This document shows positions 1 to 51,060 of a stretch of DNA of 51,060 nucleotides, piece after piece. Source of the stretch: an uncultured Coriobacteriaceae bacterium (GTDB taxonomy: Bacteria > Actinomycetota > Coriobacteriia > Coriobacteriales > Atopobiaceae); NCBI GenBank assembly GCA_902797175.1, contig CADBRX010000087.1:1-51060 (forward strand), written 5' to 3'. Position 1 is the stretch's first letter, and every line of letters starts with the position of its first letter. A model generated the notes under the pieces. It did not search any database. It was not told the origin of the DNA and worked only from the letters and a program-made list of their open reading frames with translations. A program made the position numbers and the translations under genes.

Positions 1-84
1 ACAACGTTCCGTATCCGGTTGTCAAGGTGCTGCGAAACTCGAAAAACCTCGATCTAACCTGTTGACAAATTCATAGCTGGCTCC

Positions 85-957
85 TTATATGGTTTGCGAT
101 GGGTCCAGAAACGCCGGCATCCCTCCCGTTTGCGCTGCCTTCGCGATCTCGAACAGCGCATCGGCCACCGCGTCGTCTGCCGAGGGGCCGATGCGGAAGT
201 GCGCCGCCGCCAGCGCCTCGGGGCTGGCGTTGTCCACCACGATGGAGTGGGGGACCGCCTCGAGCATGGAGACGTCGTTTTCCGAGTCGCCGAACACCGC
301 CACCTCGTCGAGCGTGAGCTTGAGCTCCTCGGCCAGCACCTCGACGGCACGGCCCTTGCTCCAGCCCTTGGGGAGGATGTCGATGAAGGGCCCGTACATG
401 GTGGGGAACACGAAGTCGATCATGGGAAACTGCTCGCGGAGCGTGTCGCGCAGGGTGACCATCTCGTCCCAGGGGAGGTCACAACGGAGGTTTGCCTTGA
501 TGTATGTGGCGCGGTCGAGGCGGTCGATCACGTTTGGACGGGTGCCGAACGATGACTCGTGCCGGGCAAGCTCCTCGCGTGTCGCGCCAAGGTAGTACGT
601 GGCCCCGTCGGTCGTCTCGGAAATGTCGTCAAGGTCGTAGATTGCCAGAGCACATCCCTTGACGTCGCGTATCCAGGCTCCCACCTCGGTGAGGTGAGCC
701 CCGGACAGCAGCTCCTGGTGCACCAACCTTCCGTCGACATACACGAGCTGGCCGTTGACGTAGGCGCCGGTCTTGCCGCACTCCGTGTCCCCGCCAAACA
801 TCCAGCGCATGGCCGCCGGGACCCTGCCCGAGACGGGGCCAAAGTGGAGGCCCGCATCGAGCATCGCGTGGATGCCGGCAATGGCACGCATGCTTGCATG
901 GGGTGCTCCCAGCGGGATGAGCGTGTTGTCGAGGTCGGTGAGGGCAAGCTTTATCAT
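85..957 (-). CDS. Cof-type HAD-IIB family sugar-phosphate phosphatase/hydrolase
   Basis: 290-aa ORF. HAD motif I is TDLDNTL near the N-terminus and motif IV is FGDSENDVSML near the C-terminus, with a cap-sized insert between them. AAGGAG lies 6 nt upstream of the ATG. Confidence 0.85.
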   Translation of the reverse strand: MIKLALTDLDNTLIPLGAPHASMRAIAGIHAMLDAGLHFGPVSGRVPAAMRWMFGGDTECGKTGAYVNGQLVYVDGRLVHQELLSGAHLTEVGAWIRDVKGCALAIYDLDDISETTDGATYYLGATREELARHESSFGTRPNVIDRLDRATYIKANLRCDLPWDEMVTLRDTLREQFPMIDFVFPTMYGPFIDILPKGWSKGRAVEVLAEELKLTLDEVAVFGDSENDVSMLEAVPHSIVVDNASPEALAAAHFRIGPSADDAVADALFEIAKAAQTGGMPAFLDPSQTI

Positions 958-989
958 GGGGTTCTCCTTGCATGTCGGGGTGACTGATA

Positions 990-1072
990 CAAAGGGGTGT
1001 AACCCTTTTGTGTCACAGGGTGACCCTTCTGACTGAACGAAAGCCGTGATGCAAAAGGGTTACACCCTTTTG
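990..1072. terminator. Inverted-repeat element with 27-nt arms (990-1016 and 1046-1072, 3 mismatches, 29-nt spacer); each arm is itself a mini-hairpin AAAGGGG-loop-CCCTTTT; probable terminator downstream of galT
   Basis: The left arm is caaaggggtgtaacccttttgtgtcac. The reverse complement of the right arm is caaaagggtgtaacccttttgcatcac. The element lies in the 132-nt gap after the galT stop (1090) and has T-runs at the stem ends on both strands. Confidence 0.55.
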
Positions 1073-1089
1073 CATCAGACGACGGTGTC

Positions 1090-2499
1090 CTACAGGCATT
1101 CAAGAAAGCGCCCGAGGGCTGCGCGGCCGTCCTCGTCCCACTTGAACACGCCGGCATCCTCCAAGACGCCGGCAAACGTGTGGCCGACCGCGTCGCGTGT
1201 CAGGGTCCCGTCGTATATCGACTCATACAGGCGAGGCGGCAGGATGGCCATGCCCATGACCTCGATGAGGCCGATGTTCTCCTTCTTTATGTGCCACTTG
1301 TCCTCGTGGGGATGAAAGACGCCCAACGGGTGCTCGGCCGAGGTGACGTTGCAGCGCAAGGCAAGGTAGAGCTCATACTCCTCGCCGCATCTGCGCGCGA
1401 TCGGCGTGACCGTGTTGTGCGGGGTGCCGTTTTGGTCGTACGCCAGCACCCCGGCGGCCTGGTCGTTCCACGAGCGCCAGGCCTGCGCGATGTGGCATGC
1501 CGCATCGAGGAGCTCCTTGCGGTCCGTGCTCCGCAGGCGCAGCACGGAGAGGGGCCAGCGCAACGAGACGCAGGTCACGCCCTCAAAGCCAGGCAGGCTG
1601 ACCGTGCGTTCGACCTCTGCGCGCATCATGGGGAACTCATGGCGCCCACCTTGGAAATGGTCATGGGAGAGAATGGACCCGCCAACGATGGGGAGGTCGG
1701 CATTCGACCCCACGAAGTAGTGGGGGAGGAAATCGATGAAGTCAAGGAGACGCCCCATGTTGGCACGGTTGATGGCCATCGGCCGATGCTCCGCGCTCAT
1801 GGTGATGCAGTGCTCCTCGAAGTAGGCGTAGGGGCTGTATTGGAAGCCCCACGTCTCCCCGCCGAGCTCGATGGGAACGACGCGCAGGTTCTGCCGGGCG
1901 GGATGGGGACCAAGGGGCGAGCGGGCGCCCCGCCCGTAATAGCCCTCGTTCTCAACGCAGAGCTGGCATGCCGGGTATTGCGCGCCAACGAGGGCCTTGC
2001 CTTCGGCCGCGATGAAGGCGGGATCCTTCTCGGGCTTTGAGAGGTTGATGGTGATCTCCAGTTCGCCCCAGGCGGTGGAGGTCCTCCAGCTCATGTTACG
2101 CGCGATGGCTGCCTCTCGCACGTAGCGCGCGTCGCAGCACAGGCGATAGAACCAGTCGGTCGCGGCTTGCGGGCCCTCGGTCCGCATCAGGGCGTGGAAG
2201 CGTTCGTTTATGGTGCTGGGGCGGGCCATCAGAAGGCCCATGAGCTCGGTCTCGATGCGGTCGCGGCCCGAAGGGGTGTCCTCGTCGACACCCGCCTCGA
2301 CACCTGCCGCGCTGAGGCGGTTCATGACCGCCTCGAGGTCGAACTCCTCGACGTCGACGGCATCCCACAGCGGCGTGGAGCCGCTCTGGCGCAGGGCGCC
2401 GAGGATGCGGTTGAATGCCCAGGTCCTGTCGTCTGGGCTGATGATGGCGCATCGCGCTGCGTAGGCGACCAGCGCCGCCGCGCTCTGTGTTATAGCCAT
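1090..2499 (-). CDS. galT: Galactose-1-phosphate uridylyltransferase (long, Gram-positive type)
   Basis: 469-aa ORF with motifs YPACQLCVENEGYYGR, WGFQYSPYAYFEEHCI and GGSILSHDHFQGG (active-site His motif). The length fits the ~490-aa GalT family. Its ATG overlaps the galK stop by 10 nt. Confidence 0.9.
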   Translation of the reverse strand: MAITQSAAALVAYAARCAIISPDDRTWAFNRILGALRQSGSTPLWDAVDVEEFDLEAVMNRLSAAGVEAGVDEDTPSGRDRIETELMGLLMARPSTINERFHALMRTEGPQAATDWFYRLCCDARYVREAAIARNMSWRTSTAWGELEITINLSKPEKDPAFIAAEGKALVGAQYPACQLCVENEGYYGRGARSPLGPHPARQNLRVVPIELGGETWGFQYSPYAYFEEHCITMSAEHRPMAINRANMGRLLDFIDFLPHYFVGSNADLPIVGGSILSHDHFQGGRHEFPMMRAEVERTVSLPGFEGVTCVSLRWPLSVLRLRSTDRKELLDAACHIAQAWRSWNDQAAGVLAYDQNGTPHNTVTPIARRCGEEYELYLALRCNVTSAEHPLGVFHPHEDKWHIKKENIGLIEVMGMAILPPRLYESIYDGTLTRDAVGHTFAGVLEDAGVFKWDEDGRAALGRFLECL

Positions 2500-3686
2500 T
2501 CTGCCTCAGCTCCTTCGTCGGCAATCTCGTACACCTTGCAGGCGTCCGAGCCCAGCCACTTGTTCATGCCGGCAGCATACATGCTCGTAAGCTCCGAGGG
2601 GACAAAGGCCTGGATGGAGCCGCCGAAGCCCCCTCCGTGGATGCGCGTGGCGCCGCGGCCTTGCAGGAGGTGCTCAGACAGCGCGATGGCAACCATGCAG
2701 TCCTGCTCTCGTGCCCCTGCTGCGCTCACGTTCTGCAAAAACATCGCCGAGCTCGCGCCCGAGCGACGGGTCAGCTCGATGAAGCGCCCCATGTCGCCCT
2801 TCTTGAGGGCATCCCAACGGGCGTCAACCAGACGCATCTCCTGGAAGTAGTGGAAGGCCCACAATACCGGGCGATCGCCCAGGCGGTGGCGCAGGGCGCG
2901 CAGATACCAAAACAGCGCGTCCTCCTTGATGTCGGCGAGCCGCTCATAGCCCAAGGCCTCGGCGACCTGCTTCATCTCGGTTGGTACGGCGGCGTACTCG
3001 TCGGTGTAGGCGCTGTGGTCGCATCCGACTTCGGTGAGGACCAGCGCGTAGTCGTGCTCGGCAAAGTCAAAGGAAAGCTTCTGCGCCCGGGGGTCCGCGT
3101 CCCTGAAGTCCATGTAGGACAGGCCACCAAGGCTCACGGCAAGCTGGTCCATGAGTCCGCACGGCTTGCCAAACCAATCCTGCTCGACGCGCTGCGCCAT
3201 CTGCGCCGCCTCGATGGGGTCGATTGCCCGTCCTGGCCAGAGCGCCTCCATCGCTCGGCAGAGCGCCAGCTCGTAGGCTGCCGAGGACGACAGTCCTCCG
3301 CCCGAGGGGATGTCGCTTGTCATGACGAGTGCGAAGCCTTGGGGTGTGCGTCCCGTGGCGAGCATCTGCGCGGCCATGCCGCGGACGAGAGCGGTGGAGC
3401 TCACGTATTCGTCCGGGCGGGGCTCAAGATCATCAAGCGTCACATGGACGGGCTCGAAGCCCTCGCTGTATACGCGCAGCTCATGCGAGGCGACAGGCGT
3501 CGCAAGGCACTCGATGCTTCGGTCAAGCGCGCCTGCGATCACGCGCCCGCCCTCGTGGTCGGTGTGGTTTCCGGCGATCTCGCTGCGGGCGGGCGAGCGT
3601 ATGGCGAGCACCGGTCCCGAGGGGCCTTCAACCTTGCTGGCAAGATAGGGGGACAGACGATCCGCAATGCTGTTGATGTCTTTCAT
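2490..3686 (-). CDS. galK: Galactokinase (GHMP kinase family)
   Basis: I place the start at ATG 3686, preceded by GGGAGGAG, giving 398 aa. The 65-codon upstream extension in the ORF track overlaps the lacG 3' end and looks non-coding. Motifs are AGNHTDHEGG (galactokinase signature-like), PSGGGLSSSAA (GHMP ATP site) and HGGGFGGS. The gene is translationally coupled to galT. Confidence 0.8.
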   Translation of the reverse strand: MKDINSIADRLSPYLASKVEGPSGPVLAIRSPARSEIAGNHTDHEGGRVIAGALDRSIECLATPVASHELRVYSEGFEPVHVTLDDLEPRPDEYVSSTALVRGMAAQMLATGRTPQGFALVMTSDIPSGGGLSSSAAYELALCRAMEALWPGRAIDPIEAAQMAQRVEQDWFGKPCGLMDQLAVSLGGLSYMDFRDADPRAQKLSFDFAEHDYALVLTEVGCDHSAYTDEYAAVPTEMKQVAEALGYERLADIKEDALFWYLRALRHRLGDRPVLWAFHYFQEMRLVDARWDALKKGDMGRFIELTRRSGASSAMFLQNVSAAGAREQDCMVAIALSEHLLQGRGATRIHGGGFGGSIQAFVPSELTSMYAAGMNKWLGSDACKVYEIADEGAEAEWL

Positions 3687-3733
3687 CGGGTGCTCCTCCC
3701 TCGTTGTGGGCGCGTCCTTGCGCCGCGGAGCTG

Positions 3734-5152
3734 CTAGGTGAGCCTGCCTAATCGAACGACCTGCGCATACCAGTACGCAGATGCCTTGGGAATGCGCCTT
3801 TGGGTCTCGAAGTCGACGTAGAAGAAGCCGTAGCGCTTGCCGTAACCGTTGGTCCAGCTGAACATGTCCATGAGCGACCACAGGAAGTAGCCGGTGACGT
3901 TGACGCCTGCGTCAACGGCCTTGAGAAGCCACTCCAGGTGGGCCCGCACGTAGTCGATGCGGTAGGAGTCGTCGACGGTGTCCTCTACCAGCGCGTCCTT
4001 GGCGCCCATCCCGTTTTCGGTGATGAGGATCTCTTGGTAGTTGGGGTACTGCAGGCGGATGCGCACGAGCAGGTCGTACATGCCCTCCGGGTAGATGAGC
4101 CAGTCCCAGTCCGTGCGGGGGATGCCCTCCTTGTTCACGCGCTCGCCCACGCCCGCGAGGGCAAAGCGCTCGGTGCCCTTGTCGCCCGTCGCGTTGTGGT
4201 GCAGGACCGTGGGGCCGTCATAGCTGCGCAAGAAGCGGCTCTGGTAGTAGTTGATGCCCAGGTAGTCGTTGTGCTGCGCTGCCCGCCGCATGCAGAGGAG
4301 GTCCTCCTCGCGGATGTCGAGCGCACCTCCCGAAAGCGCGGCGAGGCGTTCTGCGCACTCCAGCGTGTCAGGCGCGTAGTCGCCCCTGAACGTCGCGTCG
4401 AGCAGGAACTGGTTCTGCAGGACGTCTTCGTTCTTGGCCGCCTGGATGTCGGCGGGGTCGTTCTCGTCGTAGGGGTACTTGCTCTCAAAGGTGTGCACCA
4501 CGCCGATCTTGCCCCTGTGACCCCCTTCGTGGAAGGCGAGCACCGCCCGGGCGTGGGCAAGCATCATGTTGTGGTTGCACTGCAGCGCCTTGTCGAGGGC
4601 ACCCGTGATGCCTCCCGGAGGGAAGGTCCCCTCGATGAAGGTGTTGCTGGCCACGGCCCAGATCTCGTTGAAGGTGAACCAGTTGCTGACCTCGTCGCCA
4701 TACTCCGCAAAGCAGAAGCGGGCATAGTCCTCAAAGGCGTCGATGGTGGCACGGTCGAGGAAGCCGCCCTTGTCAAAGAGGGCAAGCGGCGTGTCAAAGT
4801 GGTGCAGCGTGACGTAGGGCTCCACGCCATGGGCGCGGCAGGCGCGGAACACGTCATGGTAGAACGCGATGCCTTCGGGGTTCCTTGCGCCGACGCCTTG
4901 GGGGAAGATCCGGCTCCAGGCTATGGAGATGCGGATGCCGTTGATGCCAAAGCGCTCGCACAGGGCAAGGTCATGCTCGTAGCTATGGTAGAAGTCCGAG
5001 GCGGGGTCAGCGGAGAAGCGACCCTTCTTGGCGAGGAACGGGTCCCAGGACACCTCTCCCTTGCCGTGCCCGTGCGTCTCTCCCTCGCACTGGTACGCTG
5101 CGGTGGCTGCTCCAAAGACGAAGCCGGCAGGAAATGTGTTCGTAGGGGTCAT
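3734..5152 (-). CDS. lacG: 6-phospho-beta-galactosidase (GH1)
   Basis: I place the start at ATG 5152 (AAGGAG 7 nt upstream), giving 472 aa. The protein is colinear with my recollection of staphylococcal/lactococcal LacG. Motifs are FGAATAAYQCEG, NGIRISIAWSRIFP, TLHHFDTP, TFNEI (acid/base Glu), ITENG (nucleophile Glu) and FSWTNGYGKRYGFFYVDF (Ser/Lys/Tyr phosphate-binding region). Confidence 0.9.
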   Translation of the reverse strand: MTPTNTFPAGFVFGAATAAYQCEGETHGHGKGEVSWDPFLAKKGRFSADPASDFYHSYEHDLALCERFGINGIRISIAWSRIFPQGVGARNPEGIAFYHDVFRACRAHGVEPYVTLHHFDTPLALFDKGGFLDRATIDAFEDYARFCFAEYGDEVSNWFTFNEIWAVASNTFIEGTFPPGGITGALDKALQCNHNMMLAHARAVLAFHEGGHRGKIGVVHTFESKYPYDENDPADIQAAKNEDVLQNQFLLDATFRGDYAPDTLECAERLAALSGGALDIREEDLLCMRRAAQHNDYLGINYYQSRFLRSYDGPTVLHHNATGDKGTERFALAGVGERVNKEGIPRTDWDWLIYPEGMYDLLVRIRLQYPNYQEILITENGMGAKDALVEDTVDDSYRIDYVRAHLEWLLKAVDAGVNVTGYFLWSLMDMFSWTNGYGKRYGFFYVDFETQRRIPKASAYWYAQVVRLGRLT

Positions 5153-5228
5153 CGGTGCTCCTTTGCAGGTGACGGGCCTCTCGACAGGGGAGGGGCTTGC
5201 GGTGGCAGGGCATGGTGCTGGGTAACGT

Positions 5229-5263
5229 TGGGCGCCCCACGCAGCAAATGGGGCGCCCCACGC
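5229..5263. repeat. Intercistronic GC-rich direct repeat (GGGCGCCCCACGC x2, at 5230-5242 and 5251-5263) between lacE and lacG; each copy is self-complementary and the two can pair into a ~12-bp stem
   Basis: Read directly from ttgggcgccccacgcagcaaatggggcgccccacgcc. It lies in the 121-nt lacE-lacG gap. Confidence 0.6.
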
Positions 5264-5273
5264 CAAGGGAGGG

Positions 5274-7016
5274 CTATTTGCTCAGGTGGTCGCTAACGAA
5301 GCTGAGCGCTTCCTCGCCGTTGCGGGTAAGCGCGATGTACTGGCGTCCCTCGCAGGCGGCGACCTTCACGCCCATGCGGTCGGCGTCGATCTTGAGGTCC
5401 TCGAGGTAGGAGGCGACCTGCGGTGCCAGCACGACCAGGTCGAAGTCGGGCATGATGTCGAGGTGCGCCCCATAGGAGCCTGCCGCGCTCTCGAGGTCGA
5501 TGCCGTGCTCGTCCGCCGCCTTTGCGAGGGCGTTGGCGAGGAGCCCCGAGGTCCCTCCGCCCGCGCAGAGCACGAGCACCTTCTTGCCCTCAAGGCTGCC
5601 TGCCGAGGCAGTCGATGTGGCAGGGGAGGCGATGGAGGCCTTGGCGGGCGCAGCCTTCGCGACGGCCGCGGCGGGTGCCTTGCCCTGGAAGGCATCGCTC
5701 ATGCGTGCGGCCTTGTCGGCGGCGCGCGCCTCGAGCTCCTCGGCCTCGATCTGGGCCTCTTCCTCGCACTTCTCCAGGTCGTACATCTTGAAGAATGGGT
5801 AGTAGATGACGAAGTCCATGACGAGGGCGACGGCCACAAAGACAAACGAGAGCGGGCTGAGGCCGCAGCCAAGGACGATGCCGAGGGGTGCCGGCGTGGT
5901 CCACGGCAGCGTGTAGAGGAAGCCGTTCATGCCCAACACGTCGATGAAGAGCTTGAAGACCCACGCGTTGGCCACGGGTGCCACCACAAACGGGATGAGG
6001 AAGACGGGGTTGAGCACCATGGGCGCGCCAAAGAGGAAGGGCTCGTTGACGCCAAAGGTCACGGGGACGGCCGAGGCACGACCAACCGCGCGCAGCTCTT
6101 TTGACCGCGCCAAGAAGGCAAACATCATGCAGGGCACCAGCGTGGCACCCGTGCCGCCCATGGTGACCACAAAGAACTGCAGGTCAAGGCTGAGGGCGTG
6201 GGTGGCGTGCTGCCCCGCCTGGAAGGCGGCGAGGTTCTCGGTCATGCCCGCCAGCAGGGCGACCTCAACGGCTGGCTCCACGATGGAGGGGCCATGCACG
6301 CCCACAAACCAGAAGAGCGACATGGCGCCATAGATGATGGCGATGCCAAGGTAGCTGTCAGCGGCGGAGAAGATGGGCTGGAACAGCTGAATGACCCCCT
6401 CTGCCACACAGCTGCCCGTGAGGGTGCGCACAGCGAGGTCGACCAGCCAGAACAGGATGACCGAGAGCGAGAAGGGAATGATGTCCTTGAAGGTCTGCGA
6501 GATGTTGGGCGGAACCTGCTCGGGCATGTGGATGGTGATGTTGCGCGAGACGCAGAACTTGTAGATACCGCCGACCACGAATGCGGCGATGAAGGCGGTG
6601 AGCAGGCCCTTGCTGCCGAGGCAGTCGGAAGCGAAGCCGCCCTCGAGGGGGTCGGATGCCAGGATGAACAGGCCGACCGTCGCGCACACCATGGTGGAGA
6701 GGAAGTTGATCTGGTTGTTGCGCGGCATGTCACGGTTGAGGCTGTCCGTGAAGTGCTTTGCCGTGGTGGCTGCCACCACTACCGAGAGGATGCCCATCGA
6801 GTAGCCGTAGGGCTTGGTGATGATGGCCTCGAGCTCGGGCGGCCAGGTGAAGCCCCAGATGTTGGGCACATAGGCCACCAGCAGGAAGATGGACGAGAAG
6901 ATGACGATGGGCATGCACGAGATGAAGCCATCCTTGATGGCCTTGAGGTACTTGTTGCGGGCAACGTTGTCAAAGAACGGCTTGAACTTCTGTATGGTCG
7001 CGATGAGTTTGTCCAC
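5274..7016 (-). CDS. lacE: PTS lactose-specific EIICB component
   Basis: 580 aa with a GTG start and GGAGG 6 nt upstream. The N-terminus MDKLIATIQKFKPFFDNVARNKYLKAIKDGFISCMPIVIFSSIFLL is colinear with LacE. EIIC motifs are GPSIVEP and FGVNEPFLFGAP. An Ala/Glu-rich linker leads to a C-terminal EIIB with the active Cys in KVLVLCAGGGTSGLLANAL. Confidence 0.92.
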   Translation of the reverse strand: MDKLIATIQKFKPFFDNVARNKYLKAIKDGFISCMPIVIFSSIFLLVAYVPNIWGFTWPPELEAIITKPYGYSMGILSVVVAATTAKHFTDSLNRDMPRNNQINFLSTMVCATVGLFILASDPLEGGFASDCLGSKGLLTAFIAAFVVGGIYKFCVSRNITIHMPEQVPPNISQTFKDIIPFSLSVILFWLVDLAVRTLTGSCVAEGVIQLFQPIFSAADSYLGIAIIYGAMSLFWFVGVHGPSIVEPAVEVALLAGMTENLAAFQAGQHATHALSLDLQFFVVTMGGTGATLVPCMMFAFLARSKELRAVGRASAVPVTFGVNEPFLFGAPMVLNPVFLIPFVVAPVANAWVFKLFIDVLGMNGFLYTLPWTTPAPLGIVLGCGLSPLSFVFVAVALVMDFVIYYPFFKMYDLEKCEEEAQIEAEELEARAADKAARMSDAFQGKAPAAAVAKAAPAKASIASPATSTASAGSLEGKKVLVLCAGGGTSGLLANALAKAADEHGIDLESAAGSYGAHLDIMPDFDLVVLAPQVASYLEDLKIDADRMGVKVAACEGRQYIALTRNGEEALSFVSDHLSK

Positions 7017-7046
7017 GACGCCTCCTTCTTGCGTTGCGGGTCTGAG

Positions 7047-7355
7047 CTAGCGGTAGATATCGACAAGGGTTTCGATGACGTCGCGCAGGAGCATGCTGGT
7101 CATGAGGTGGTCCTGCGCATGCACGAGCAGGATCGTGGGGGAGGTCACCTCTCCACGGGCCTCTGCGGTGAGCAGGTTGGTCTGGGCTTTGTGGGCATCG
7201 TTGAGCAGCTCTTGCGCCTCGTTGATGAGGGCATGCGTGTGGTCGAGGTTGCCCTCCTTTGCCTCCTTCACGGCGCTCAGAAGCTTTGTGCGCGCGTCTC
7301 CCGAGAAGGCGACGATCTCGATCATCATCATTTCGAGCTCTTCGTTGGTGATCAT
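7047..7355 (-). CDS. lacF: PTS lactose/cellobiose-family EIIA component
   Basis: 102 aa with motifs IVAFSGDAR and AHKAQTNLL and the phospho-His context LVHAQDHLMT. GAAGGG lies 7 nt upstream of the ATG. It is the first gene of the operon. Confidence 0.9.
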   Translation of the reverse strand: MITNEELEMMMIEIVAFSGDARTKLLSAVKEAKEGNLDHTHALINEAQELLNDAHKAQTNLLTAEARGEVTSPTILLVHAQDHLMTSMLLRDVIETLVDIYR

Positions 7356-7395
7356 GGCAATCCCTTCTATGCGAGGTTGCTGGACAGCGTGCTTA

Positions 7396-7445
7396 GAGAA
7401 ATGTTAACGTGAACATCCTCTTGAATGTTAACGTTAACATTTCTC
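7396..7445. promoter_or_regulatory. Tandem LacI/GalR-type operators in the lacF / regulator divergent region: O1 atgttaacgtgaacat (7401-7416, 14/16 symmetric) and O2 aatgttaacgttaacatt (7424-7441, perfect 18-bp palindrome); centres 24 bp apart
   Basis: Both palindromes are centred on CG and resemble the TGnnAACGnTnnCA class of LacI-family/cre sites. The outer flanks gagaaatgttaacg and cgttaacatttctc are also inverted repeats. The sites lie 53 and 77 nt upstream of the lacF ATG, next to a divergent LacI-family gene. Confidence 0.6.
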
Positions 7446-43665: not shown

Positions 43666-43705
43666 TAAGCACGCTGTCCAGCAACCTCGCATAGAAGGGA
43701 TTGCC

Positions 43706-44014
43706 ATGATCACCAACGAAGAGCTCGAAATGATGATGATCGAGATCGTCGCCTTCTCGGGAGACGCGCGCACAAAGCTTCTGAGCGCCGTGAAGGAGGC
43801 AAAGGAGGGCAACCTCGACCACACGCATGCCCTCATCAACGAGGCGCAAGAGCTGCTCAACGATGCCCACAAAGCCCAGACCAACCTGCTCACCGCAGAG
43901 GCCCGTGGAGAGGTGACCTCCCCCACGATCCTGCTCGTGCATGCGCAGGACCACCTCATGACCAGCATGCTCCTGCGCGACGTCATCGAAACCCTTGTCG
44001 ATATCTACCGCTAG
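43706..44014 (+). CDS. lacF: PTS lactose/cellobiose-family EIIA (mirror copy)
   Basis: Exact twin of 7047..7355. Confidence 0.85.
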   Translation: MITNEELEMMMIEIVAFSGDARTKLLSAVKEAKEGNLDHTHALINEAQELLNDAHKAQTNLLTAEARGEVTSPTILLVHAQDHLMTSMLLRDVIETLVDIYR

Positions 44015-44044
44015 CTCAGACCCGCAACGCAAGAAGGAGGCGTC

Positions 44045-45787
44045 GTGGACAAACTCATCGCGACCATACAGAAGTTCAAGCCGTTCTTTGACAACGTTGC
44101 CCGCAACAAGTACCTCAAGGCCATCAAGGATGGCTTCATCTCGTGCATGCCCATCGTCATCTTCTCGTCCATCTTCCTGCTGGTGGCCTATGTGCCCAAC
44201 ATCTGGGGCTTCACCTGGCCGCCCGAGCTCGAGGCCATCATCACCAAGCCCTACGGCTACTCGATGGGCATCCTCTCGGTAGTGGTGGCAGCCACCACGG
44301 CAAAGCACTTCACGGACAGCCTCAACCGTGACATGCCGCGCAACAACCAGATCAACTTCCTCTCCACCATGGTGTGCGCGACGGTCGGCCTGTTCATCCT
44401 GGCATCCGACCCCCTCGAGGGCGGCTTCGCTTCCGACTGCCTCGGCAGCAAGGGCCTGCTCACCGCCTTCATCGCCGCATTCGTGGTCGGCGGTATCTAC
44501 AAGTTCTGCGTCTCGCGCAACATCACCATCCACATGCCCGAGCAGGTTCCGCCCAACATCTCGCAGACCTTCAAGGACATCATTCCCTTCTCGCTCTCGG
44601 TCATCCTGTTCTGGCTGGTCGACCTCGCTGTGCGCACCCTCACGGGCAGCTGTGTGGCAGAGGGGGTCATTCAGCTGTTCCAGCCCATCTTCTCCGCCGC
44701 TGACAGCTACCTTGGCATCGCCATCATCTATGGCGCCATGTCGCTCTTCTGGTTTGTGGGCGTGCATGGCCCCTCCATCGTGGAGCCAGCCGTTGAGGTC
44801 GCCCTGCTGGCGGGCATGACCGAGAACCTCGCCGCCTTCCAGGCGGGGCAGCACGCCACCCACGCCCTCAGCCTTGACCTGCAGTTCTTTGTGGTCACCA
44901 TGGGCGGCACGGGTGCCACGCTGGTGCCCTGCATGATGTTTGCCTTCTTGGCGCGGTCAAAAGAGCTGCGCGCGGTTGGTCGTGCCTCGGCCGTCCCCGT
45001 GACCTTTGGCGTCAACGAGCCCTTCCTCTTTGGCGCGCCCATGGTGCTCAACCCCGTCTTCCTCATCCCGTTTGTGGTGGCACCCGTGGCCAACGCGTGG
45101 GTCTTCAAGCTCTTCATCGACGTGTTGGGCATGAACGGCTTCCTCTACACGCTGCCGTGGACCACGCCGGCACCCCTCGGCATCGTCCTTGGCTGCGGCC
45201 TCAGCCCGCTCTCGTTTGTCTTTGTGGCCGTCGCCCTCGTCATGGACTTCGTCATCTACTACCCATTCTTCAAGATGTACGACCTGGAGAAGTGCGAGGA
45301 AGAGGCCCAGATCGAGGCCGAGGAGCTCGAGGCGCGCGCCGCCGACAAGGCCGCACGCATGAGCGATGCCTTCCAGGGCAAGGCACCCGCCGCGGCCGTC
45401 GCGAAGGCTGCGCCCGCCAAGGCCTCCATCGCCTCCCCTGCCACATCGACTGCCTCGGCAGGCAGCCTTGAGGGCAAGAAGGTGCTCGTGCTCTGCGCGG
45501 GCGGAGGGACCTCGGGGCTCCTCGCCAACGCCCTCGCAAAGGCGGCGGACGAGCACGGCATCGACCTCGAGAGCGCGGCAGGCTCCTATGGGGCGCACCT
45601 CGACATCATGCCCGACTTCGACCTGGTCGTGCTGGCACCGCAGGTCGCCTCCTACCTCGAGGACCTCAAGATCGACGCCGACCGCATGGGCGTGAAGGTC
45701 GCCGCCTGCGAGGGACGCCAGTACATCGCGCTTACCCGCAACGGCGAGGAAGCGCTCAGCTTCGTTAGCGACCACCTGAGCAAATAG
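44045..45787 (+). CDS. lacE: PTS lactose-specific EIICB (mirror copy)
   Basis: Exact twin of 5274..7016. The GTG start at 44045 has GGAGG upstream. Confidence 0.88.
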   Translation: MDKLIATIQKFKPFFDNVARNKYLKAIKDGFISCMPIVIFSSIFLLVAYVPNIWGFTWPPELEAIITKPYGYSMGILSVVVAATTAKHFTDSLNRDMPRNNQINFLSTMVCATVGLFILASDPLEGGFASDCLGSKGLLTAFIAAFVVGGIYKFCVSRNITIHMPEQVPPNISQTFKDIIPFSLSVILFWLVDLAVRTLTGSCVAEGVIQLFQPIFSAADSYLGIAIIYGAMSLFWFVGVHGPSIVEPAVEVALLAGMTENLAAFQAGQHATHALSLDLQFFVVTMGGTGATLVPCMMFAFLARSKELRAVGRASAVPVTFGVNEPFLFGAPMVLNPVFLIPFVVAPVANAWVFKLFIDVLGMNGFLYTLPWTTPAPLGIVLGCGLSPLSFVFVAVALVMDFVIYYPFFKMYDLEKCEEEAQIEAEELEARAADKAARMSDAFQGKAPAAAVAKAAPAKASIASPATSTASAGSLEGKKVLVLCAGGGTSGLLANALAKAADEHGIDLESAAGSYGAHLDIMPDFDLVVLAPQVASYLEDLKIDADRMGVKVAACEGRQYIALTRNGEEALSFVSDHLSK

Positions 45788-45797
45788 CCCTCCCTTG

Positions 45798-45832
45798 GCG
45801 TGGGGCGCCCCATTTGCTGCGTGGGGCGCCCA
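45798..45832. repeat. Intercistronic GC-rich direct repeat (mirror copy)
   Basis: Exact twin of 5229..5263. Confidence 0.55.
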
Positions 45833-45908
45833 ACGTTACCCAGCACCATGCCCTGCCACCGCAAGCCCCTCCCCTGTCGAGAGGCCCGTCACCTGCAAAG
45901 GAGCACCG

Positions 45909-47327
45909 ATGACCCCTACGAACACATTTCCTGCCGGCTTCGTCTTTGGAGCAGCCACCGCAGCGTACCAGTGCGAGGGAGAGACGCACGGGCACGGCAA
46001 GGGAGAGGTGTCCTGGGACCCGTTCCTCGCCAAGAAGGGTCGCTTCTCCGCTGACCCCGCCTCGGACTTCTACCATAGCTACGAGCATGACCTTGCCCTG
46101 TGCGAGCGCTTTGGCATCAACGGCATCCGCATCTCCATAGCCTGGAGCCGGATCTTCCCCCAAGGCGTCGGCGCAAGGAACCCCGAAGGCATCGCGTTCT
46201 ACCATGACGTGTTCCGCGCCTGCCGCGCCCATGGCGTGGAGCCCTACGTCACGCTGCACCACTTTGACACGCCGCTTGCCCTCTTTGACAAGGGCGGCTT
46301 CCTCGACCGTGCCACCATCGACGCCTTTGAGGACTATGCCCGCTTCTGCTTTGCGGAGTATGGCGACGAGGTCAGCAACTGGTTCACCTTCAACGAGATC
46401 TGGGCCGTGGCCAGCAACACCTTCATCGAGGGGACCTTCCCTCCGGGAGGCATCACGGGTGCCCTCGACAAGGCGCTGCAGTGCAACCACAACATGATGC
46501 TTGCCCACGCCCGGGCGGTGCTCGCCTTCCACGAAGGGGGTCACAGGGGCAAGATCGGCGTGGTGCACACCTTTGAGAGCAAGTACCCCTACGACGAGAA
46601 CGACCCCGCCGACATCCAGGCGGCCAAGAACGAAGACGTCCTGCAGAACCAGTTCCTGCTCGACGCGACGTTCAGGGGCGACTACGCGCCTGACACGCTG
46701 GAGTGCGCAGAACGCCTCGCCGCGCTTTCGGGAGGTGCGCTCGACATCCGCGAGGAGGACCTCCTCTGCATGCGGCGGGCAGCGCAGCACAACGACTACC
46801 TGGGCATCAACTACTACCAGAGCCGCTTCTTGCGCAGCTATGACGGCCCCACGGTCCTGCACCACAACGCGACGGGCGACAAGGGCACCGAGCGCTTTGC
46901 CCTCGCGGGCGTGGGCGAGCGCGTGAACAAGGAGGGCATCCCCCGCACGGACTGGGACTGGCTCATCTACCCGGAGGGCATGTACGACCTGCTCGTGCGC
47001 ATCCGCCTGCAGTACCCCAACTACCAAGAGATCCTCATCACCGAAAACGGGATGGGCGCCAAGGACGCGCTGGTAGAGGACACCGTCGACGACTCCTACC
47101 GCATCGACTACGTGCGGGCCCACCTGGAGTGGCTTCTCAAGGCCGTTGACGCAGGCGTCAACGTCACCGGCTACTTCCTGTGGTCGCTCATGGACATGTT
47201 CAGCTGGACCAACGGTTACGGCAAGCGCTACGGCTTCTTCTACGTCGACTTCGAGACCCAAAGGCGCATTCCCAAGGCATCTGCGTACTGGTATGCGCAG
47301 GTCGTTCGATTAGGCAGGCTCACCTAG
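45909..47327 (+). CDS. lacG: 6-phospho-beta-galactosidase, GH1 (mirror copy)
   Basis: Exact twin of 3734..5152. Confidence 0.85.
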   Translation: MTPTNTFPAGFVFGAATAAYQCEGETHGHGKGEVSWDPFLAKKGRFSADPASDFYHSYEHDLALCERFGINGIRISIAWSRIFPQGVGARNPEGIAFYHDVFRACRAHGVEPYVTLHHFDTPLALFDKGGFLDRATIDAFEDYARFCFAEYGDEVSNWFTFNEIWAVASNTFIEGTFPPGGITGALDKALQCNHNMMLAHARAVLAFHEGGHRGKIGVVHTFESKYPYDENDPADIQAAKNEDVLQNQFLLDATFRGDYAPDTLECAERLAALSGGALDIREEDLLCMRRAAQHNDYLGINYYQSRFLRSYDGPTVLHHNATGDKGTERFALAGVGERVNKEGIPRTDWDWLIYPEGMYDLLVRIRLQYPNYQEILITENGMGAKDALVEDTVDDSYRIDYVRAHLEWLLKAVDAGVNVTGYFLWSLMDMFSWTNGYGKRYGFFYVDFETQRRIPKASAYWYAQVVRLGRLT

Positions 47328-47374
47328 CAGCTCCGCGGCGCAAGGACGCGCCCACAACGAGGGAGGAGCACCCG

Positions 47375-48571
47375 ATGAAAGACATCAACAGCATTGCGGA
47401 TCGTCTGTCCCCCTATCTTGCCAGCAAGGTTGAAGGCCCCTCGGGACCGGTGCTCGCCATACGCTCGCCCGCCCGCAGCGAGATCGCCGGAAACCACACC
47501 GACCACGAGGGCGGGCGCGTGATCGCAGGCGCGCTTGACCGAAGCATCGAGTGCCTTGCGACGCCTGTCGCCTCGCATGAGCTGCGCGTATACAGCGAGG
47601 GCTTCGAGCCCGTCCATGTGACGCTTGATGATCTTGAGCCCCGCCCGGACGAATACGTGAGCTCCACCGCTCTCGTCCGCGGCATGGCCGCGCAGATGCT
47701 CGCCACGGGACGCACACCCCAAGGCTTCGCACTCGTCATGACAAGCGACATCCCCTCGGGCGGAGGACTGTCGTCCTCGGCAGCCTACGAGCTGGCGCTC
47801 TGCCGAGCGATGGAGGCGCTCTGGCCAGGACGGGCAATCGACCCCATCGAGGCGGCGCAGATGGCGCAGCGCGTCGAGCAGGATTGGTTTGGCAAGCCGT
47901 GCGGACTCATGGACCAGCTTGCCGTGAGCCTTGGTGGCCTGTCCTACATGGACTTCAGGGACGCGGACCCCCGGGCGCAGAAGCTTTCCTTTGACTTTGC
48001 CGAGCACGACTACGCGCTGGTCCTCACCGAAGTCGGATGCGACCACAGCGCCTACACCGACGAGTACGCCGCCGTACCAACCGAGATGAAGCAGGTCGCC
48101 GAGGCCTTGGGCTATGAGCGGCTCGCCGACATCAAGGAGGACGCGCTGTTTTGGTATCTGCGCGCCCTGCGCCACCGCCTGGGCGATCGCCCGGTATTGT
48201 GGGCCTTCCACTACTTCCAGGAGATGCGTCTGGTTGACGCCCGTTGGGATGCCCTCAAGAAGGGCGACATGGGGCGCTTCATCGAGCTGACCCGTCGCTC
48301 GGGCGCGAGCTCGGCGATGTTTTTGCAGAACGTGAGCGCAGCAGGGGCACGAGAGCAGGACTGCATGGTTGCCATCGCGCTGTCTGAGCACCTCCTGCAA
48401 GGCCGCGGCGCCACGCGCATCCACGGAGGGGGCTTCGGCGGCTCCATCCAGGCCTTTGTCCCCTCGGAGCTTACGAGCATGTATGCTGCCGGCATGAACA
48501 AGTGGCTGGGCTCGGACGCCTGCAAGGTGTACGAGATTGCCGACGAAGGAGCTGAGGCAGAATGGCTATAA
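47375..48571 (+). CDS. galK: Galactokinase (mirror copy)
   Basis: Exact twin of 2490..3686. The ATG at 47375 is preceded by GGGAGGAG. Confidence 0.75.
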   Translation: MKDINSIADRLSPYLASKVEGPSGPVLAIRSPARSEIAGNHTDHEGGRVIAGALDRSIECLATPVASHELRVYSEGFEPVHVTLDDLEPRPDEYVSSTALVRGMAAQMLATGRTPQGFALVMTSDIPSGGGLSSSAAYELALCRAMEALWPGRAIDPIEAAQMAQRVEQDWFGKPCGLMDQLAVSLGGLSYMDFRDADPRAQKLSFDFAEHDYALVLTEVGCDHSAYTDEYAAVPTEMKQVAEALGYERLADIKEDALFWYLRALRHRLGDRPVLWAFHYFQEMRLVDARWDALKKGDMGRFIELTRRSGASSAMFLQNVSAAGAREQDCMVAIALSEHLLQGRGATRIHGGGFGGSIQAFVPSELTSMYAAGMNKWLGSDACKVYEIADEGAEAEWL

Positions 48572-49971
48572 CACAGAGCGCGGCGGCGCTGGTCGCCTAC
48601 GCAGCGCGATGCGCCATCATCAGCCCAGACGACAGGACCTGGGCATTCAACCGCATCCTCGGCGCCCTGCGCCAGAGCGGCTCCACGCCGCTGTGGGATG
48701 CCGTCGACGTCGAGGAGTTCGACCTCGAGGCGGTCATGAACCGCCTCAGCGCGGCAGGTGTCGAGGCGGGTGTCGACGAGGACACCCCTTCGGGCCGCGA
48801 CCGCATCGAGACCGAGCTCATGGGCCTTCTGATGGCCCGCCCCAGCACCATAAACGAACGCTTCCACGCCCTGATGCGGACCGAGGGCCCGCAAGCCGCG
48901 ACCGACTGGTTCTATCGCCTGTGCTGCGACGCGCGCTACGTGCGAGAGGCAGCCATCGCGCGTAACATGAGCTGGAGGACCTCCACCGCCTGGGGCGAAC
49001 TGGAGATCACCATCAACCTCTCAAAGCCCGAGAAGGATCCCGCCTTCATCGCGGCCGAAGGCAAGGCCCTCGTTGGCGCGCAATACCCGGCATGCCAGCT
49101 CTGCGTTGAGAACGAGGGCTATTACGGGCGGGGCGCCCGCTCGCCCCTTGGTCCCCATCCCGCCCGGCAGAACCTGCGCGTCGTTCCCATCGAGCTCGGC
49201 GGGGAGACGTGGGGCTTCCAATACAGCCCCTACGCCTACTTCGAGGAGCACTGCATCACCATGAGCGCGGAGCATCGGCCGATGGCCATCAACCGTGCCA
49301 ACATGGGGCGTCTCCTTGACTTCATCGATTTCCTCCCCCACTACTTCGTGGGGTCGAATGCCGACCTCCCCATCGTTGGCGGGTCCATTCTCTCCCATGA
49401 CCATTTCCAAGGTGGGCGCCATGAGTTCCCCATGATGCGCGCAGAGGTCGAACGCACGGTCAGCCTGCCTGGCTTTGAGGGCGTGACCTGCGTCTCGTTG
49501 CGCTGGCCCCTCTCCGTGCTGCGCCTGCGGAGCACGGACCGCAAGGAGCTCCTCGATGCGGCATGCCACATCGCGCAGGCCTGGCGCTCGTGGAACGACC
49601 AGGCCGCCGGGGTGCTGGCGTACGACCAAAACGGCACCCCGCACAACACGGTCACGCCGATCGCGCGCAGATGCGGCGAGGAGTATGAGCTCTACCTTGC
49701 CTTGCGCTGCAACGTCACCTCGGCCGAGCACCCGTTGGGCGTCTTTCATCCCCACGAGGACAAGTGGCACATAAAGAAGGAGAACATCGGCCTCATCGAG
49801 GTCATGGGCATGGCCATCCTGCCGCCTCGCCTGTATGAGTCGATATACGACGGGACCCTGACACGCGACGCGGTCGGCCACACGTTTGCCGGCGTCTTGG
49901 AGGATGCCGGCGTGTTCAAGTGGGACGAGGACGGCCGCGCAGCCCTCGGGCGCTTTCTTGAATGCCTGTAG
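48562..49971 (+). CDS. galT: Galactose-1-phosphate uridylyltransferase (mirror copy)
   Basis: Exact twin of 1090..2499. Confidence 0.85.
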   Translation: MAITQSAAALVAYAARCAIISPDDRTWAFNRILGALRQSGSTPLWDAVDVEEFDLEAVMNRLSAAGVEAGVDEDTPSGRDRIETELMGLLMARPSTINERFHALMRTEGPQAATDWFYRLCCDARYVREAAIARNMSWRTSTAWGELEITINLSKPEKDPAFIAAEGKALVGAQYPACQLCVENEGYYGRGARSPLGPHPARQNLRVVPIELGGETWGFQYSPYAYFEEHCITMSAEHRPMAINRANMGRLLDFIDFLPHYFVGSNADLPIVGGSILSHDHFQGGRHEFPMMRAEVERTVSLPGFEGVTCVSLRWPLSVLRLRSTDRKELLDAACHIAQAWRSWNDQAAGVLAYDQNGTPHNTVTPIARRCGEEYELYLALRCNVTSAEHPLGVFHPHEDKWHIKKENIGLIEVMGMAILPPRLYESIYDGTLTRDAVGHTFAGVLEDAGVFKWDEDGRAALGRFLECL

Positions 49972-49988
49972 GACACCGTCGTCTGATG

Positions 49989-50071
49989 CAAAAGGGTGTA
50001 ACCCTTTTGCATCACGGCTTTCGTTCAGTCAGAAGGGTCACCCTGTGACACAAAAGGGTTACACCCCTTTG
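49989..50071. terminator. 27-nt-armed inverted-repeat element (mirror copy)
   Basis: Exact twin of 990..1072. Confidence 0.5.
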
Positions 50072-50103
50072 TATCAGTCACCCCGACATGCAAGGAGAAC
50101 CCC

Positions 50104-50976
50104 ATGATAAAGCTTGCCCTCACCGACCTCGACAACACGCTCATCCCGCTGGGAGCACCCCATGCAAGCATGCGTGCCATTGCCGGCATCCACGCGATGC
50201 TCGATGCGGGCCTCCACTTTGGCCCCGTCTCGGGCAGGGTCCCGGCGGCCATGCGCTGGATGTTTGGCGGGGACACGGAGTGCGGCAAGACCGGCGCCTA
50301 CGTCAACGGCCAGCTCGTGTATGTCGACGGAAGGTTGGTGCACCAGGAGCTGCTGTCCGGGGCTCACCTCACCGAGGTGGGAGCCTGGATACGCGACGTC
50401 AAGGGATGTGCTCTGGCAATCTACGACCTTGACGACATTTCCGAGACGACCGACGGGGCCACGTACTACCTTGGCGCGACACGCGAGGAGCTTGCCCGGC
50501 ACGAGTCATCGTTCGGCACCCGTCCAAACGTGATCGACCGCCTCGACCGCGCCACATACATCAAGGCAAACCTCCGTTGTGACCTCCCCTGGGACGAGAT
50601 GGTCACCCTGCGCGACACGCTCCGCGAGCAGTTTCCCATGATCGACTTCGTGTTCCCCACCATGTACGGGCCCTTCATCGACATCCTCCCCAAGGGCTGG
50701 AGCAAGGGCCGTGCCGTCGAGGTGCTGGCCGAGGAGCTCAAGCTCACGCTCGACGAGGTGGCGGTGTTCGGCGACTCGGAAAACGACGTCTCCATGCTCG
50801 AGGCGGTCCCCCACTCCATCGTGGTGGACAACGCCAGCCCCGAGGCGCTGGCGGCGGCGCACTTCCGCATCGGCCCCTCGGCAGACGACGCGGTGGCCGA
50901 TGCGCTGTTCGAGATCGCGAAGGCAGCGCAAACGGGAGGGATGCCGGCGTTTCTGGACCCATCGCAAACCATATAA
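50104..50976 (+). CDS. Cof-type HAD-IIB phosphatase/hydrolase (mirror copy)
   Basis: Exact twin of 85..957. Confidence 0.8.
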   Translation: MIKLALTDLDNTLIPLGAPHASMRAIAGIHAMLDAGLHFGPVSGRVPAAMRWMFGGDTECGKTGAYVNGQLVYVDGRLVHQELLSGAHLTEVGAWIRDVKGCALAIYDLDDISETTDGATYYLGATREELARHESSFGTRPNVIDRLDRATYIKANLRCDLPWDEMVTLRDTLREQFPMIDFVFPTMYGPFIDILPKGWSKGRAVEVLAEELKLTLDEVAVFGDSENDVSMLEAVPHSIVVDNASPEALAAAHFRIGPSADDAVADALFEIAKAAQTGGMPAFLDPSQTI

Positions 50977-51060
50977 GGAGCCAGCTATGAATTTGTCAAC
51001 AGGTTAGATCGAGGTTTTTCGAGTTTCGCAGCACCTTGACAACCGGATACGGAACGTTGT

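What the first reader, a model, noticed from the sequence alone, without database searches (positions are those of the whole stretch)
1..51060. The whole window is one perfect 51,060-bp reverse-complement palindrome (2 x 25,530 bp, zero spacer)
Seen directly: base x pairs with base 51061-x. I checked the two ends (1-60 vs 51001-51060), an intergenic block (7381-7440 vs 43621-43680) and the centre (…taagtgctgt|acagcactta…). Every ORF in all six frames also has a twin with an identical translation and coordinates summing to 51061, which leaves almost no room for even single-base differences. The symmetry runs exactly to both window ends, so no unique flank is visible. Established knowledge: long perfect palindromes are highly unstable in bacteria because of hairpin/cruciform cleavage by SbcCD and replication slippage. 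Fold-back contigs are a known artefact of multiple-displacement-amplification chimeras, of missed hairpin adapters or duplex fold-back long reads, and of de Bruijn graph traversal through a palindromic k-mer. Inference: this is most likely such an artefact, and the true information content is 25.5 kb. Less likely real alternatives are a snap-back symmetrical inverted duplication seeded at a short palindrome, or a replicated hairpin-telomere junction. I disfavour the telomere option because the content is ordinary chromosomal housekeeping and sugar metabolism, with no protelomerase, replication, phage or plasmid genes.
Basis: partly seen in the sequence, partly recalled or inferred. Interest (0 to 1): 0.7.

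Follow-up and report, generated by a model that had tools for sequence, protein, structure and literature searches.

The report
Fold-back assembly artefact at a hairpin
The 51-kb "perfect palindrome" is almost certainly an assembler error: a 25.5-kb stretch of ordinary rumen-bacterium chromosome printed once forwards and once as its reverse complement, folded at a real 70-bp hairpin, so only half of it carries information.

Summary
The window equals its own reverse complement with 0 mismatches over 51,060 bp.

The biology is not real. Independent contigs are 100% identical to the arm. They run through the centre for 35 bp and then leave into unique chromosome, starting with a convergent GlgA-like gene. 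A diverged strain in a JGI metagenome shows the same order.

The genome therefore holds only a native 70-bp perfect palindrome, at window 25496-25565, between two convergent genes. The window folds back exactly on its centre.

Every k-mer of the window up to k=71 exists in the non-palindromic contigs. At k=72 a single new word appears, the fold-back junction.

Both window ends stop 87 bases inside an IS110-family element. "k141" contigs stop 141 bases in and another contig set stops 55 bases in. This points to a de Bruijn contig with final k=87, the MEGAHIT k-list used for rumen co-assemblies.

A multi-k unitig simulation with no input crossing the palindrome/right-flank boundary reproduces the window base for base.

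Verdict: palindromic-unitig artefact, low interest. Reads were not available.

The parts
1..25530 (+). Arm A: genuine chromosomal sequence of a high-G+C rumen bacterium. Genes: HAD hydrolase 85-957(-), galT 1090-2499(-), galK 2490-3686(-), GH1 3734-5152(-), PTS EIIC-IIB 5274-7016(-), PTS IIA 7047-7355(-), LacI 7679-8689(+), radical SAM 8708-10618(-), thioesterase 10622-11119(-), MBL-fold 11268-11966(+), ROK-like 12025-13464(-), HAD 13644-14477(-), thymidine kinase 14875-15450(+), permease-GGDEF 15610-17763(+), uridine kinase 17773-18429(-), PTS_IIB/ROK 19025-21241(+), hexapeptide protein 21323-22240(-), hybrid histidine kinase 22379-25465(+).
   Evidence: 100% identical to independent contigs: k141_553366 covers 1-10957 and 12379-25565; STEW19 scaffold_3656 covers 8768-14466. 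Pfam assignments.
25531..51060 (-). Arm B: exact reverse complement of arm A. Only its first 35 bases (25531-25565) are supported by independent contigs. The remaining 25,495 bases are the artefactual copy.
25496..25565 (.). Native 70-bp perfect palindrome (35+35, no spacer), TCGCCGCACAAAGGGGTGGGACCCCTAAGTGCTGT|ACAGCACTTAGGGGTCCCACCCCTTTGTGCGGCGA. It lies in the 144-bp spacer between the convergent histidine-kinase and GlgA-like genes. This is the seed of the fold-back.
   Evidence: Present in L001 13118-13187 with a unique right flank. It is 70/70 identical in a diverged strain, L092. The intergenic RNA fold gives -96.6 kcal/mol, z = -10.3.
25495..25566 (.). The fold-back junction: the only 72-mer of the whole window that is absent from the independent, non-palindromic contigs.
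   Evidence: 0 missing k-mers for k<=71, exactly 1 at k=72, 70 at k=141.
1..87 (-). Contig end: 87 bases that belong to an IS110-family element lying immediately after the HAD gene stop codon. Read as the k-base overhang of a k=87 de Bruijn contig into a repeat.
   Evidence: L005 and L006 continue from here into a 400-aa IS110 transposase. Overhangs past the stop codon are 138 (two k141 contigs), 52 (STEW19 scaffolds) and 84 (window), that is K-3 for K=141, 55 and 87. The simulation reproduces all three.
50974..51060 (+). Mirror image of the same IS overhang at the other contig end.
21264..21317 (.). Second native perfect palindrome (54 bp, 27+27), between the convergent PTS_IIB/ROK and hexapeptide genes. 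It shares the unit GGGGTCCCACCC(C)TTT(C)GTGCGG with the 70-bp palindrome. No fold-back occurred here.
   Evidence: It is absent from strain L092, which has a simple hairpin instead.

Best explanation
The window is a palindromic unitig produced by a multi-k de Bruijn graph assembler, most likely MEGAHIT with final k=87. The real genome reads L - P - R. L is the 25.5-kb arm, P is a native 70-bp perfect palindrome, and R is a GlgA-like gene followed by more chromosome. Because P is its own reverse complement, for every k up to about 70 the graph contains both the path L-P-R and the path L-P-rc(L). If the words crossing the P|R boundary are missing or pruned in that data set, P has a single neighbour on both sides. 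Possible causes are a coverage gap, a hairpin-related dropout, or pruning of a low-depth strain-variable branch. The maximal unitig is then L-P-rc(L). This contig is carried into the graphs of higher k and printed in full. It grows symmetrically until the first branch in L, which is a multi-copy IS110 element, and stops k bases inside it at both ends. Shown here: the symmetry, the native palindrome with its unique right flank, the k-mer content, the end overhangs, and sufficiency by simulation. Inferred: the assembler and its k, and the absence of P|R words in the source reads.
For: (1) Zero mismatches between the arms over 25,530 bp, as expected if arm B is a computed reverse complement and not an independent measurement. 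(2) The independent 77,991-bp contig k141_553366 is 100% identical to window 1-10957 and 12379-25565, then diverges into unique sequence. That sequence encodes a 735-aa starch-synthase-like protein, a LysR regulator, a flavodoxin and an aldo-keto reductase. (3) A JGI contig from a diverged strain has the identical 70-bp palindrome and the same 20 bases of right flank, and continues 1.6 kb further. (4) All window k-mers with k<=71 occur in non-palindromic contigs, and only one 72-mer is new. (5) Contig ends overhang one repeat boundary by 141, 55 and 87 bases in three assembly sets, and the 141 matches the 'k141_' contig names. (6) The k-list 27,37...,87 is the published MEGAHIT setting for rumen co-assemblies (PMC6785717), and the organism occurs in those samples (STEW19 contigs). 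(7) Simulated multi-k unitig building with no input crossing P|R gives a 51,060-bp contig identical to the window. Full coverage, or a single k=87, gives no fold-back. (8) Rahman & Medvedev 2022 show that coverage gaps make unitigs unsafe and that SPAdes and MEGAHIT print palindromic unitigs in full (PMC9528984). Whole-contig palindromes are reported as assembly errors in PMC9455707 and in bioRxiv 10.1101/2023.06.06.543983.
Against: No reads, depth values or source record were available, so the lack of read support for the junction is inferred, not observed. The model needs the P|R words to be missing or pruned in the source data, and I cannot verify that. The k=87 inference rests on one IS boundary model. 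It is supported by the 141 and 55 coincidences and by a CCATAT motif at both ends of a 1,527-bp element, but I did not see a second IS copy in another context. A de Bruijn assembler would print the same contig if the inverted duplication were real, so the contig by itself cannot separate the two cases.
Confidence: 0.9

Rival explanations
1. In-vitro snap-back. During library preparation or amplification (MDA, PCR, end repair), single strands ending in the 70-bp palindrome folded back and were extended. This would create chimeric molecules and reads with the L-P-rc(L) junction, which the assembler then followed.
For: The axis sits on a very stable hairpin. Inverted chimeras dominate MDA artefacts, at more than 85% (PMC1855051). 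Such reads would supply the 72-mers and longer words that the native genome lacks.
Against: They are not needed: carry-over from k<=67 already reproduces the contig. True P-R reads would normally outnumber chimeras and create a branch that breaks the unitig, so the R branch must be missing anyway. Rumen digesta metagenomes are not usually MDA-amplified (my own knowledge, not checked here).
Confidence: 0.05
2. A real in-vivo symmetrical inverted duplication, at least 25.5 kb per arm, formed by snap-back or template switching at the 70-bp palindrome in part of the population of the sampled strain.
For: A suitable seed exists. The lineage shows small-scale palindrome growth: a 54-bp perfect palindrome stands where a sister strain has a simple hairpin. 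A de Bruijn assembler would collapse and print a real duplication the same way.
Against: Two independent data sets show the ordinary L-P-R order, one of them 100% identical to the arm. Long perfect palindromes are highly unstable in bacteria (established knowledge on SbcCD and replication slippage). The symmetry runs exactly to a graph branch k bases into an IS at both ends, which is a property of the graph and not of a duplication endpoint. The window holds no positive evidence beyond one adjacency that is free for k<=70.
Confidence: 0.03
3. Long-read fold-back: a missed hairpin adapter, a duplex or '2D-like' read, or a ligation chimera assembled as one contig.
For: Such inverted-repeat chimeric reads are documented for ligation-based nanopore libraries (PMC13141652, abstract seen in the listing).
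Against: The fold point would be an arbitrary fragment end, not the exact centre of a native palindrome. 25.5-kb arms with 0 differences are unlikely for independently read strands. The ends show a k-sized overhang typical of de Bruijn contigs.
Confidence: 0.01
4. A hairpin telomere of a linear replicon, or a replicated telomere junction.
For: Only the geometry: reading around a covalently closed end gives L-rc(L).
Against: The same sequence continues past the palindrome into chromosomal genes in two data sets. No protelomerase, replication, phage or plasmid domains appear in the arm. The palindrome is absent from the viral contig collection.
Confidence: 0.005

Closest known systems
Palindromic maximal unitigs and unsafe unitigs in de Bruijn graph assemblers (Rahman & Medvedev, Genome Res 2022, PMC9528984)
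   Same: The contig equals its own reverse complement and arises at a word that is its own reverse complement. It needs missing k-mers, as in the 'unsafe unitig' case. SPAdes and MEGAHIT print such unitigs in full. All k-mers are genuine and only the adjacency is false.
   Different: The paper treats mostly short palindromic unitigs and simulated data. Here one arm is 25.5 kb, and the fold-back must have been carried over from a lower k (<=67) to the final k (87), which I inferred by simulation and did not observe.
Whole-contig palindromes reported as assembly errors in Mycobacterium bovis SPAdes assemblies (PMC9455707) and in cyanobacterial single-cell assemblies (bioRxiv 10.1101/2023.06.06.543983)
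   Same: [quoted passage not shown]
   Different: Those reports do not identify the seed. Here the seed (a native 70-bp palindrome), the k bracket and the end points are worked out.
Inverted chimeras of multiple displacement amplification (Lasken & Stockwell 2007, PMC1855051)
   Same: Inverted junctions primed at short complementary sequences.
   Different: MDA chimeras usually carry an intervening deletion and sit at many sites. They would not give a zero-spacer axis on a native palindrome centre plus k-sized contig ends, and there is no sign that MDA was used.
Snap-back symmetrical inverted duplications and palindromic amplification in vivo (tandem inversion duplications in Salmonella; palindromes in yeast and tumours, e.g. 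PMC4689423, PMC7999016)
   Same: Seeded at a short palindrome or inverted repeat, and the product is L-P-rc(L).
   Different: There is no read, depth or flank evidence here. The sister contigs show the unduplicated order. Real cases are usually asymmetric or quickly remodelled.
Hairpin telomeres resolved by protelomerase (Borrelia, phage N15, the Agrobacterium linear chromosome)
   Same: Sequencing around a closed end gives a perfect fold-back at a palindromic site.
   Different: The site is internal to a chromosome in other assemblies, and no resolvase gene is present.

Membership tests
De Bruijn palindromic-unitig (fold-back contig) artefact | The contig is identical to its own reverse complement over its full length | tested here: met
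   0 mismatches in 51,060 bp.
De Bruijn palindromic-unitig (fold-back contig) artefact | The fold axis coincides with a genuine palindrome in the genome that is at least as long as a k used by the assembler | tested here: met
   A 70-bp perfect palindrome in independent contigs L001 and L092 is centred on the window axis. It is longer than k=27-67 of the inferred k-list.
De Bruijn palindromic-unitig (fold-back contig) artefact | The contig holds no sequence words beyond those of the non-duplicated genome, apart from the junction | tested here: met
   no novel k-mers for k<=71 and one novel 72-mer.
De Bruijn palindromic-unitig (fold-back contig) artefact | Independent assemblies of the same DNA pass the axis into non-mirrored sequence | tested here: met
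   k141_553366 at 100% identity and JGI Ga0256405_10004307.
De Bruijn palindromic-unitig (fold-back contig) artefact | Both ends stop at the same graph branch with a k-sized overhang | tested here: met
   Overhangs into the IS110 element are 141, 55 and 87 bases in three assembly sets. The simulation reproduces them and the exact window.
De Bruijn palindromic-unitig (fold-back contig) artefact | No or negligible read support for the fold-back junction, and 1x depth | not testable with these tools
   Reads and depth of the source assembly are not available.
In-vivo snap-back inverted duplication | A short palindrome or inverted repeat at the axis | tested here: met
   The 70-bp palindrome. This feature is shared with the artefact model, so it does not discriminate.
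In-vivo snap-back inverted duplication | Junction-spanning molecules and doubled copy number | not testable with these tools
   No reads.
In-vivo snap-back inverted duplication | Outer duplication end points joined to unique flanks | tested here: not met
   Symmetry runs to both ends, which stop k bases inside an IS. No outer junction is visible.
Hairpin telomere / protelomerase system | The palindrome is the physical end of the replicon, with nothing beyond it | tested here: not met
   Native contigs continue into a glgA-like gene, LysR and other genes.
Hairpin telomere / protelomerase system | A telomere resolvase or protelomerase gene in the replicon | tested here: not met
   No such Pfam domain in any scanned ORF of the arm or the native flank. 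Only 25.5 kb plus 10 kb were seen.
Long-read missed-adapter or duplex fold-back | The fold point lies at an arbitrary fragment end, and the arms differ by read errors | tested here: not met
   The axis is exactly the centre of a native palindrome and the arms have 0 differences.

The most novel reading that the evidence does not exclude
In the sampled rumen community, a sub-population of this high-G+C bacterium truly carries a giant snap-back inverted duplication (at least 25.5 kb per arm) seeded at the 70-bp terminator-like palindrome. This would be the large-scale counterpart of the small palindrome growth seen at 21264-21317. The assembler output would then reflect real junction molecules.
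Probability: 0.03. Interest if true: 0.6.

Novelty: not a real feature. Interest (0 to 1): 0.08.

Why it matters
As biology it does not matter. The window holds 25.5 kb of ordinary sugar- and nucleotide-metabolism genes, counted twice.

It matters as data hygiene. Such contigs double gene counts and inflate contig length and N50. They create false paralogues and false "convergent twin" operons, and they can mislead MAG completeness and contamination estimates and pangenome analyses.

The case also gives a compact recipe for recognising them without reads:
- check that the contig equals its own reverse complement;
- find the native palindrome at the axis in sister assemblies;
- find the smallest k at which a novel word appears;
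- look for k-sized overhangs at the ends.

The real feature left over is a 70-bp perfect palindrome between convergent genes. It belongs to a small family of hairpin units and is a modest curiosity.

Tried and rejected
(1) Synteny downstream of the histidine kinase in reference genomes. The GTDB scan found more than 590 homologous stretches, but the best is only 69% identical and none shares neighbours. It was uninformative, so I used same-species metagenome contigs instead.

(2) I tried to surface the window's own record, or the tail of STEW19 scaffold_3656 (27,211 bp), by repeating the look-up with a small flank and with a neighbouring protein. By coordinates that scaffold extends 1,678 bp past the palindrome. 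Similar places are collapsed in the output, so I could not read its tail. Under the native reading it would end inside an 18/24-bp tandem repeat of the glgA-like gene, which is a natural break point. This remains an inference.

(3) I first thought the JGI contig ended 20 bp into the right flank, which would have meant an assembly break at the palindrome. One search shows the locus is only a stored chunk (contig positions 1614-10744), so I dropped that idea.

(4) The simple scan found no canonical intrinsic terminator (hairpin plus T-run) at the palindrome.

(5) Nothing relevant came from tRNA search, Rfam or the viral contig collection.

The multi-copy status rests on the k-overhang pattern and on 5-6 mismatches in the IS part of contigs whose flank is 100% identical.
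Full report
**1. Observation.** The window is exactly its own reverse complement. A base-by-base comparison gives 0 mismatches over 51,060 bp, with the axis between 25530 and 25531. Composition and skews are mirrored. This cannot be chance.

**2. Content of one arm.** Pfam scans and the gene calls on sister contigs show ordinary chromosome:
- a HAD hydrolase, galT, galK, a GH1 phospho-glycosidase, and lactose/cellobiose-type PTS EIIC-IIB and IIA;
- a LacI regulator, a YgiQ-like radical-SAM protein, a thioesterase, an MBL-fold hydrolase and ROK-domain proteins;
- thymidine kinase, a permease-GGDEF protein, uridine kinase and a hexapeptide-repeat protein;
- a 1028-aa hybrid histidine kinase (22379-25465) whose stop codon is 65 bp from the axis.

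There are no tRNAs, no Rfam families and no phage, plasmid or telomere functions. G+C is 62.6%. All related material comes from ruminant gut metagenomes.

**3. What the real genome looks like at the axis.** An independent MEGAHIT contig, ena:ERZ27280472:k141_553366 (77,991 bp), carries the same genes. It is 100% identical to window 1-10957 and 12379-25565. The gap is covered at 100% identity by another independent scaffold (8768-14466).

The identity runs 35 bases past the window axis and then stops. The contig continues with TCCGATGACGGACGC... into a convergent 735-aa starch-synthase-like gene, then a LysR regulator, a flavodoxin, an aldo-keto reductase and further genes.

So the genome holds a 70-bp perfect palindrome (35+35, no spacer; window 25496-25565). 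It begins 30 nt after the kinase stop codon and ends 44 nt before the stop codon of the convergent gene.

A JGI metagenome contig, Ga0256405_10004307, comes from a diverged strain. It is 98.8% identical over much of the arm, but only about 80% identical in the C-terminal part of the kinase. It has the identical 70 bp and the same first 20 bases of right flank, and the contig continues 1.6 kb beyond the stored chunk.

The native order L-P-R is therefore seen in two independent data sets. The window is L-P-rc(L).

**4. Information content.** Every k-mer of the window with k<=71 is present, on one strand or the other, in the non-palindromic contigs. At k=72 exactly one word is new, 25495-25566: the palindrome plus one base on each side. 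At k=141 seventy words are new. The whole second arm adds a single adjacency. That adjacency is automatically available in any de Bruijn graph with k up to about 70, because P is its own reverse complement.

**5. The ends.** Beyond window position 1, six independent contigs continue identically. Two of them reach a 400-aa IS110-family transposase. Contigs that stop here do so at three discrete depths past the HAD stop codon:
- 138 bases for two 'k141_' contigs;
- 52 bases for the STEW19 scaffolds (two read directly, and a third, scaffold_3656, by coordinates);
- 84 bases for the window.

With one repeat boundary at the T of the stop codon, these are overhangs of 141, 55 and 87 bases, the k-base overhang that an edge-centric de Bruijn contig shows when it runs into a repeat. 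This boundary falls at the end of a CCATAT motif that recurs 1,527 bp away, at the far end of the element. The 141 matches the contig names, which fixes the boundary independently.

The IS portion of two contigs has 5-6 mismatches while their flank is 100% identical, as expected for a multi-copy element.

The window therefore behaves as a contig from a graph with final k=87. The k-list 27,37,47,57,67,77,87 is the published MEGAHIT setting for the large rumen co-assemblies (PMC6785717), and it recurs in other rumen studies. The organism is present in those samples (STEW19-labelled contigs).

**6. Sufficiency test.** I built unitigs from three inputs: the native sequence (far flank + IS + arm + P + R), a second IS copy in a random context, and the k series 27-87 with each contig fed to the next k.
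- With full coverage, unitigs break at the 54-bp palindrome for k<=47, break at the 70-bp palindrome for k=57-67, and pass correctly into R for k>=77.
- When no input crosses the P|R boundary, a palindromic unitig appears at k=57 and is carried forward. At k=87 it is 51,060 bp long and identical to the window.
- A single-k graph at 77, 87 or 141 does not fold back.
- The same model gives contig starts at window coordinates 33, 1 and -53 for k=55, 87 and 141, as observed.

This shows that the mechanism is sufficient and quantitatively consistent. It does not prove that the source reads lacked P|R words.

**7. Comparison with what is known.**
- Rahman & Medvedev (PMC9528984) prove that coverage gaps make unitigs unsafe even with error-free reads. 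They also show that SPAdes and MEGAHIT print palindromic unitigs in full. Because of strand symmetry, one gap at P|R removes both the entry rc(R)->P and the exit P->R.
- Whole-contig palindromes judged to be assembly errors are reported for M. bovis SPAdes assemblies (PMC9455707) and for cyanobacterial single-cell assemblies.
- Chimeric snap-back molecules, as in MDA, could also supply the junction. They are unnecessary and would still need the true branch to be missing.
- Missed-adapter long-read fold-backs do not fit an axis lying on a native palindrome centre, nor arms with 0 differences.
- A hairpin telomere is excluded by the native right flank.
- A real inverted duplication cannot be excluded from the contig alone, since a de Bruijn graph would print it identically. 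It has no positive support and is contradicted by the sister contigs and by what is known of palindrome instability.

**8. Verdict.** Confidence is about 0.9. The remainder is split between in-vitro chimeras, a real duplication and other artefacts. Interest is low. The only genuine feature is the 70-bp palindrome and its relatives.

Noticed in passing
window 21264-21317 (mirror 29744-29797); L092 about 4260-4290: The 54-bp perfect palindrome between convergent genes is strain-polymorphic. The JGI strain has only a simple 9-bp-stem hairpin, CACAAAGGGCGGGACCCCTTTGTG, at this site. The window strain has 34 extra bases that amount to an inverted copy of the hairpin unit. This looks like a perfect palindrome grown by local template switching.
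   Followed up: partly
window 990-1006, 21268-21313, 25504-25557 (plus mirrors): A small family of hairpin units (CAAAGGGGTGGGACCCC and variants) lies at the 3' ends of genes: 8 hits against 0.07 expected. The units are arranged tail-to-tail in the 70-bp palindrome and head-to-head in the 54-bp one. They may be REP-like or U-tract-less bidirectional terminators. The consensus scan found no canonical terminator.
   Followed up: partly
window 22379-25465; loci L011-L090: The 1028-aa hybrid histidine kinase has 59-69% identical full-length homologues in more than 590 stretches of ruminant-gut MAGs labelled as very different phyla, including Clostridia, Atopobiaceae, Eggerthellaceae, Selenomonadaceae, Treponema, Succinivibrionaceae and Flexilinea. 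The neighbours are not conserved. This suggests wide horizontal spread in the rumen.
   Followed up: no
window about 23900-25430 versus L092: Mosaic divergence between strains. The arm is 98-100% identical to the JGI strain, except for the C-terminal 1.5 kb of the kinase (receiver domains) at about 75-83%, while the adjacent 70-bp palindrome is 70/70 identical. Two other assemblies break inside the kinase at about 23,980-23,995, consistent with co-existing alleles.
   Followed up: partly
beyond window position 1; L006 2538-4065, L005: An IS110-family element (400-aa DEDD/Transposase_20 protein) of about 1,527 bp is inserted right at the HAD stop codon. The motif CCATAT lies at the left junction and at the right end. 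This element is why contigs end here.
   Followed up: partly
L005 1-1555 (equivalent to window 1090-2613): In one assembly (ERZ919296) galT is split into 385-aa and 89-aa ORFs by a small indel relative to the window. This is either a frameshift variant or an assembly error.
   Followed up: no
L001 14692-15008 (native right flank, not in the window): The GlgA-like gene downstream of the palindrome has an N-terminal extension encoded by an 18/24-bp tandem repeat array (a Pro/Glu/Ala-rich region with a weak PARP-like hit). This is a likely break point for short-k assemblies.
   Followed up: no
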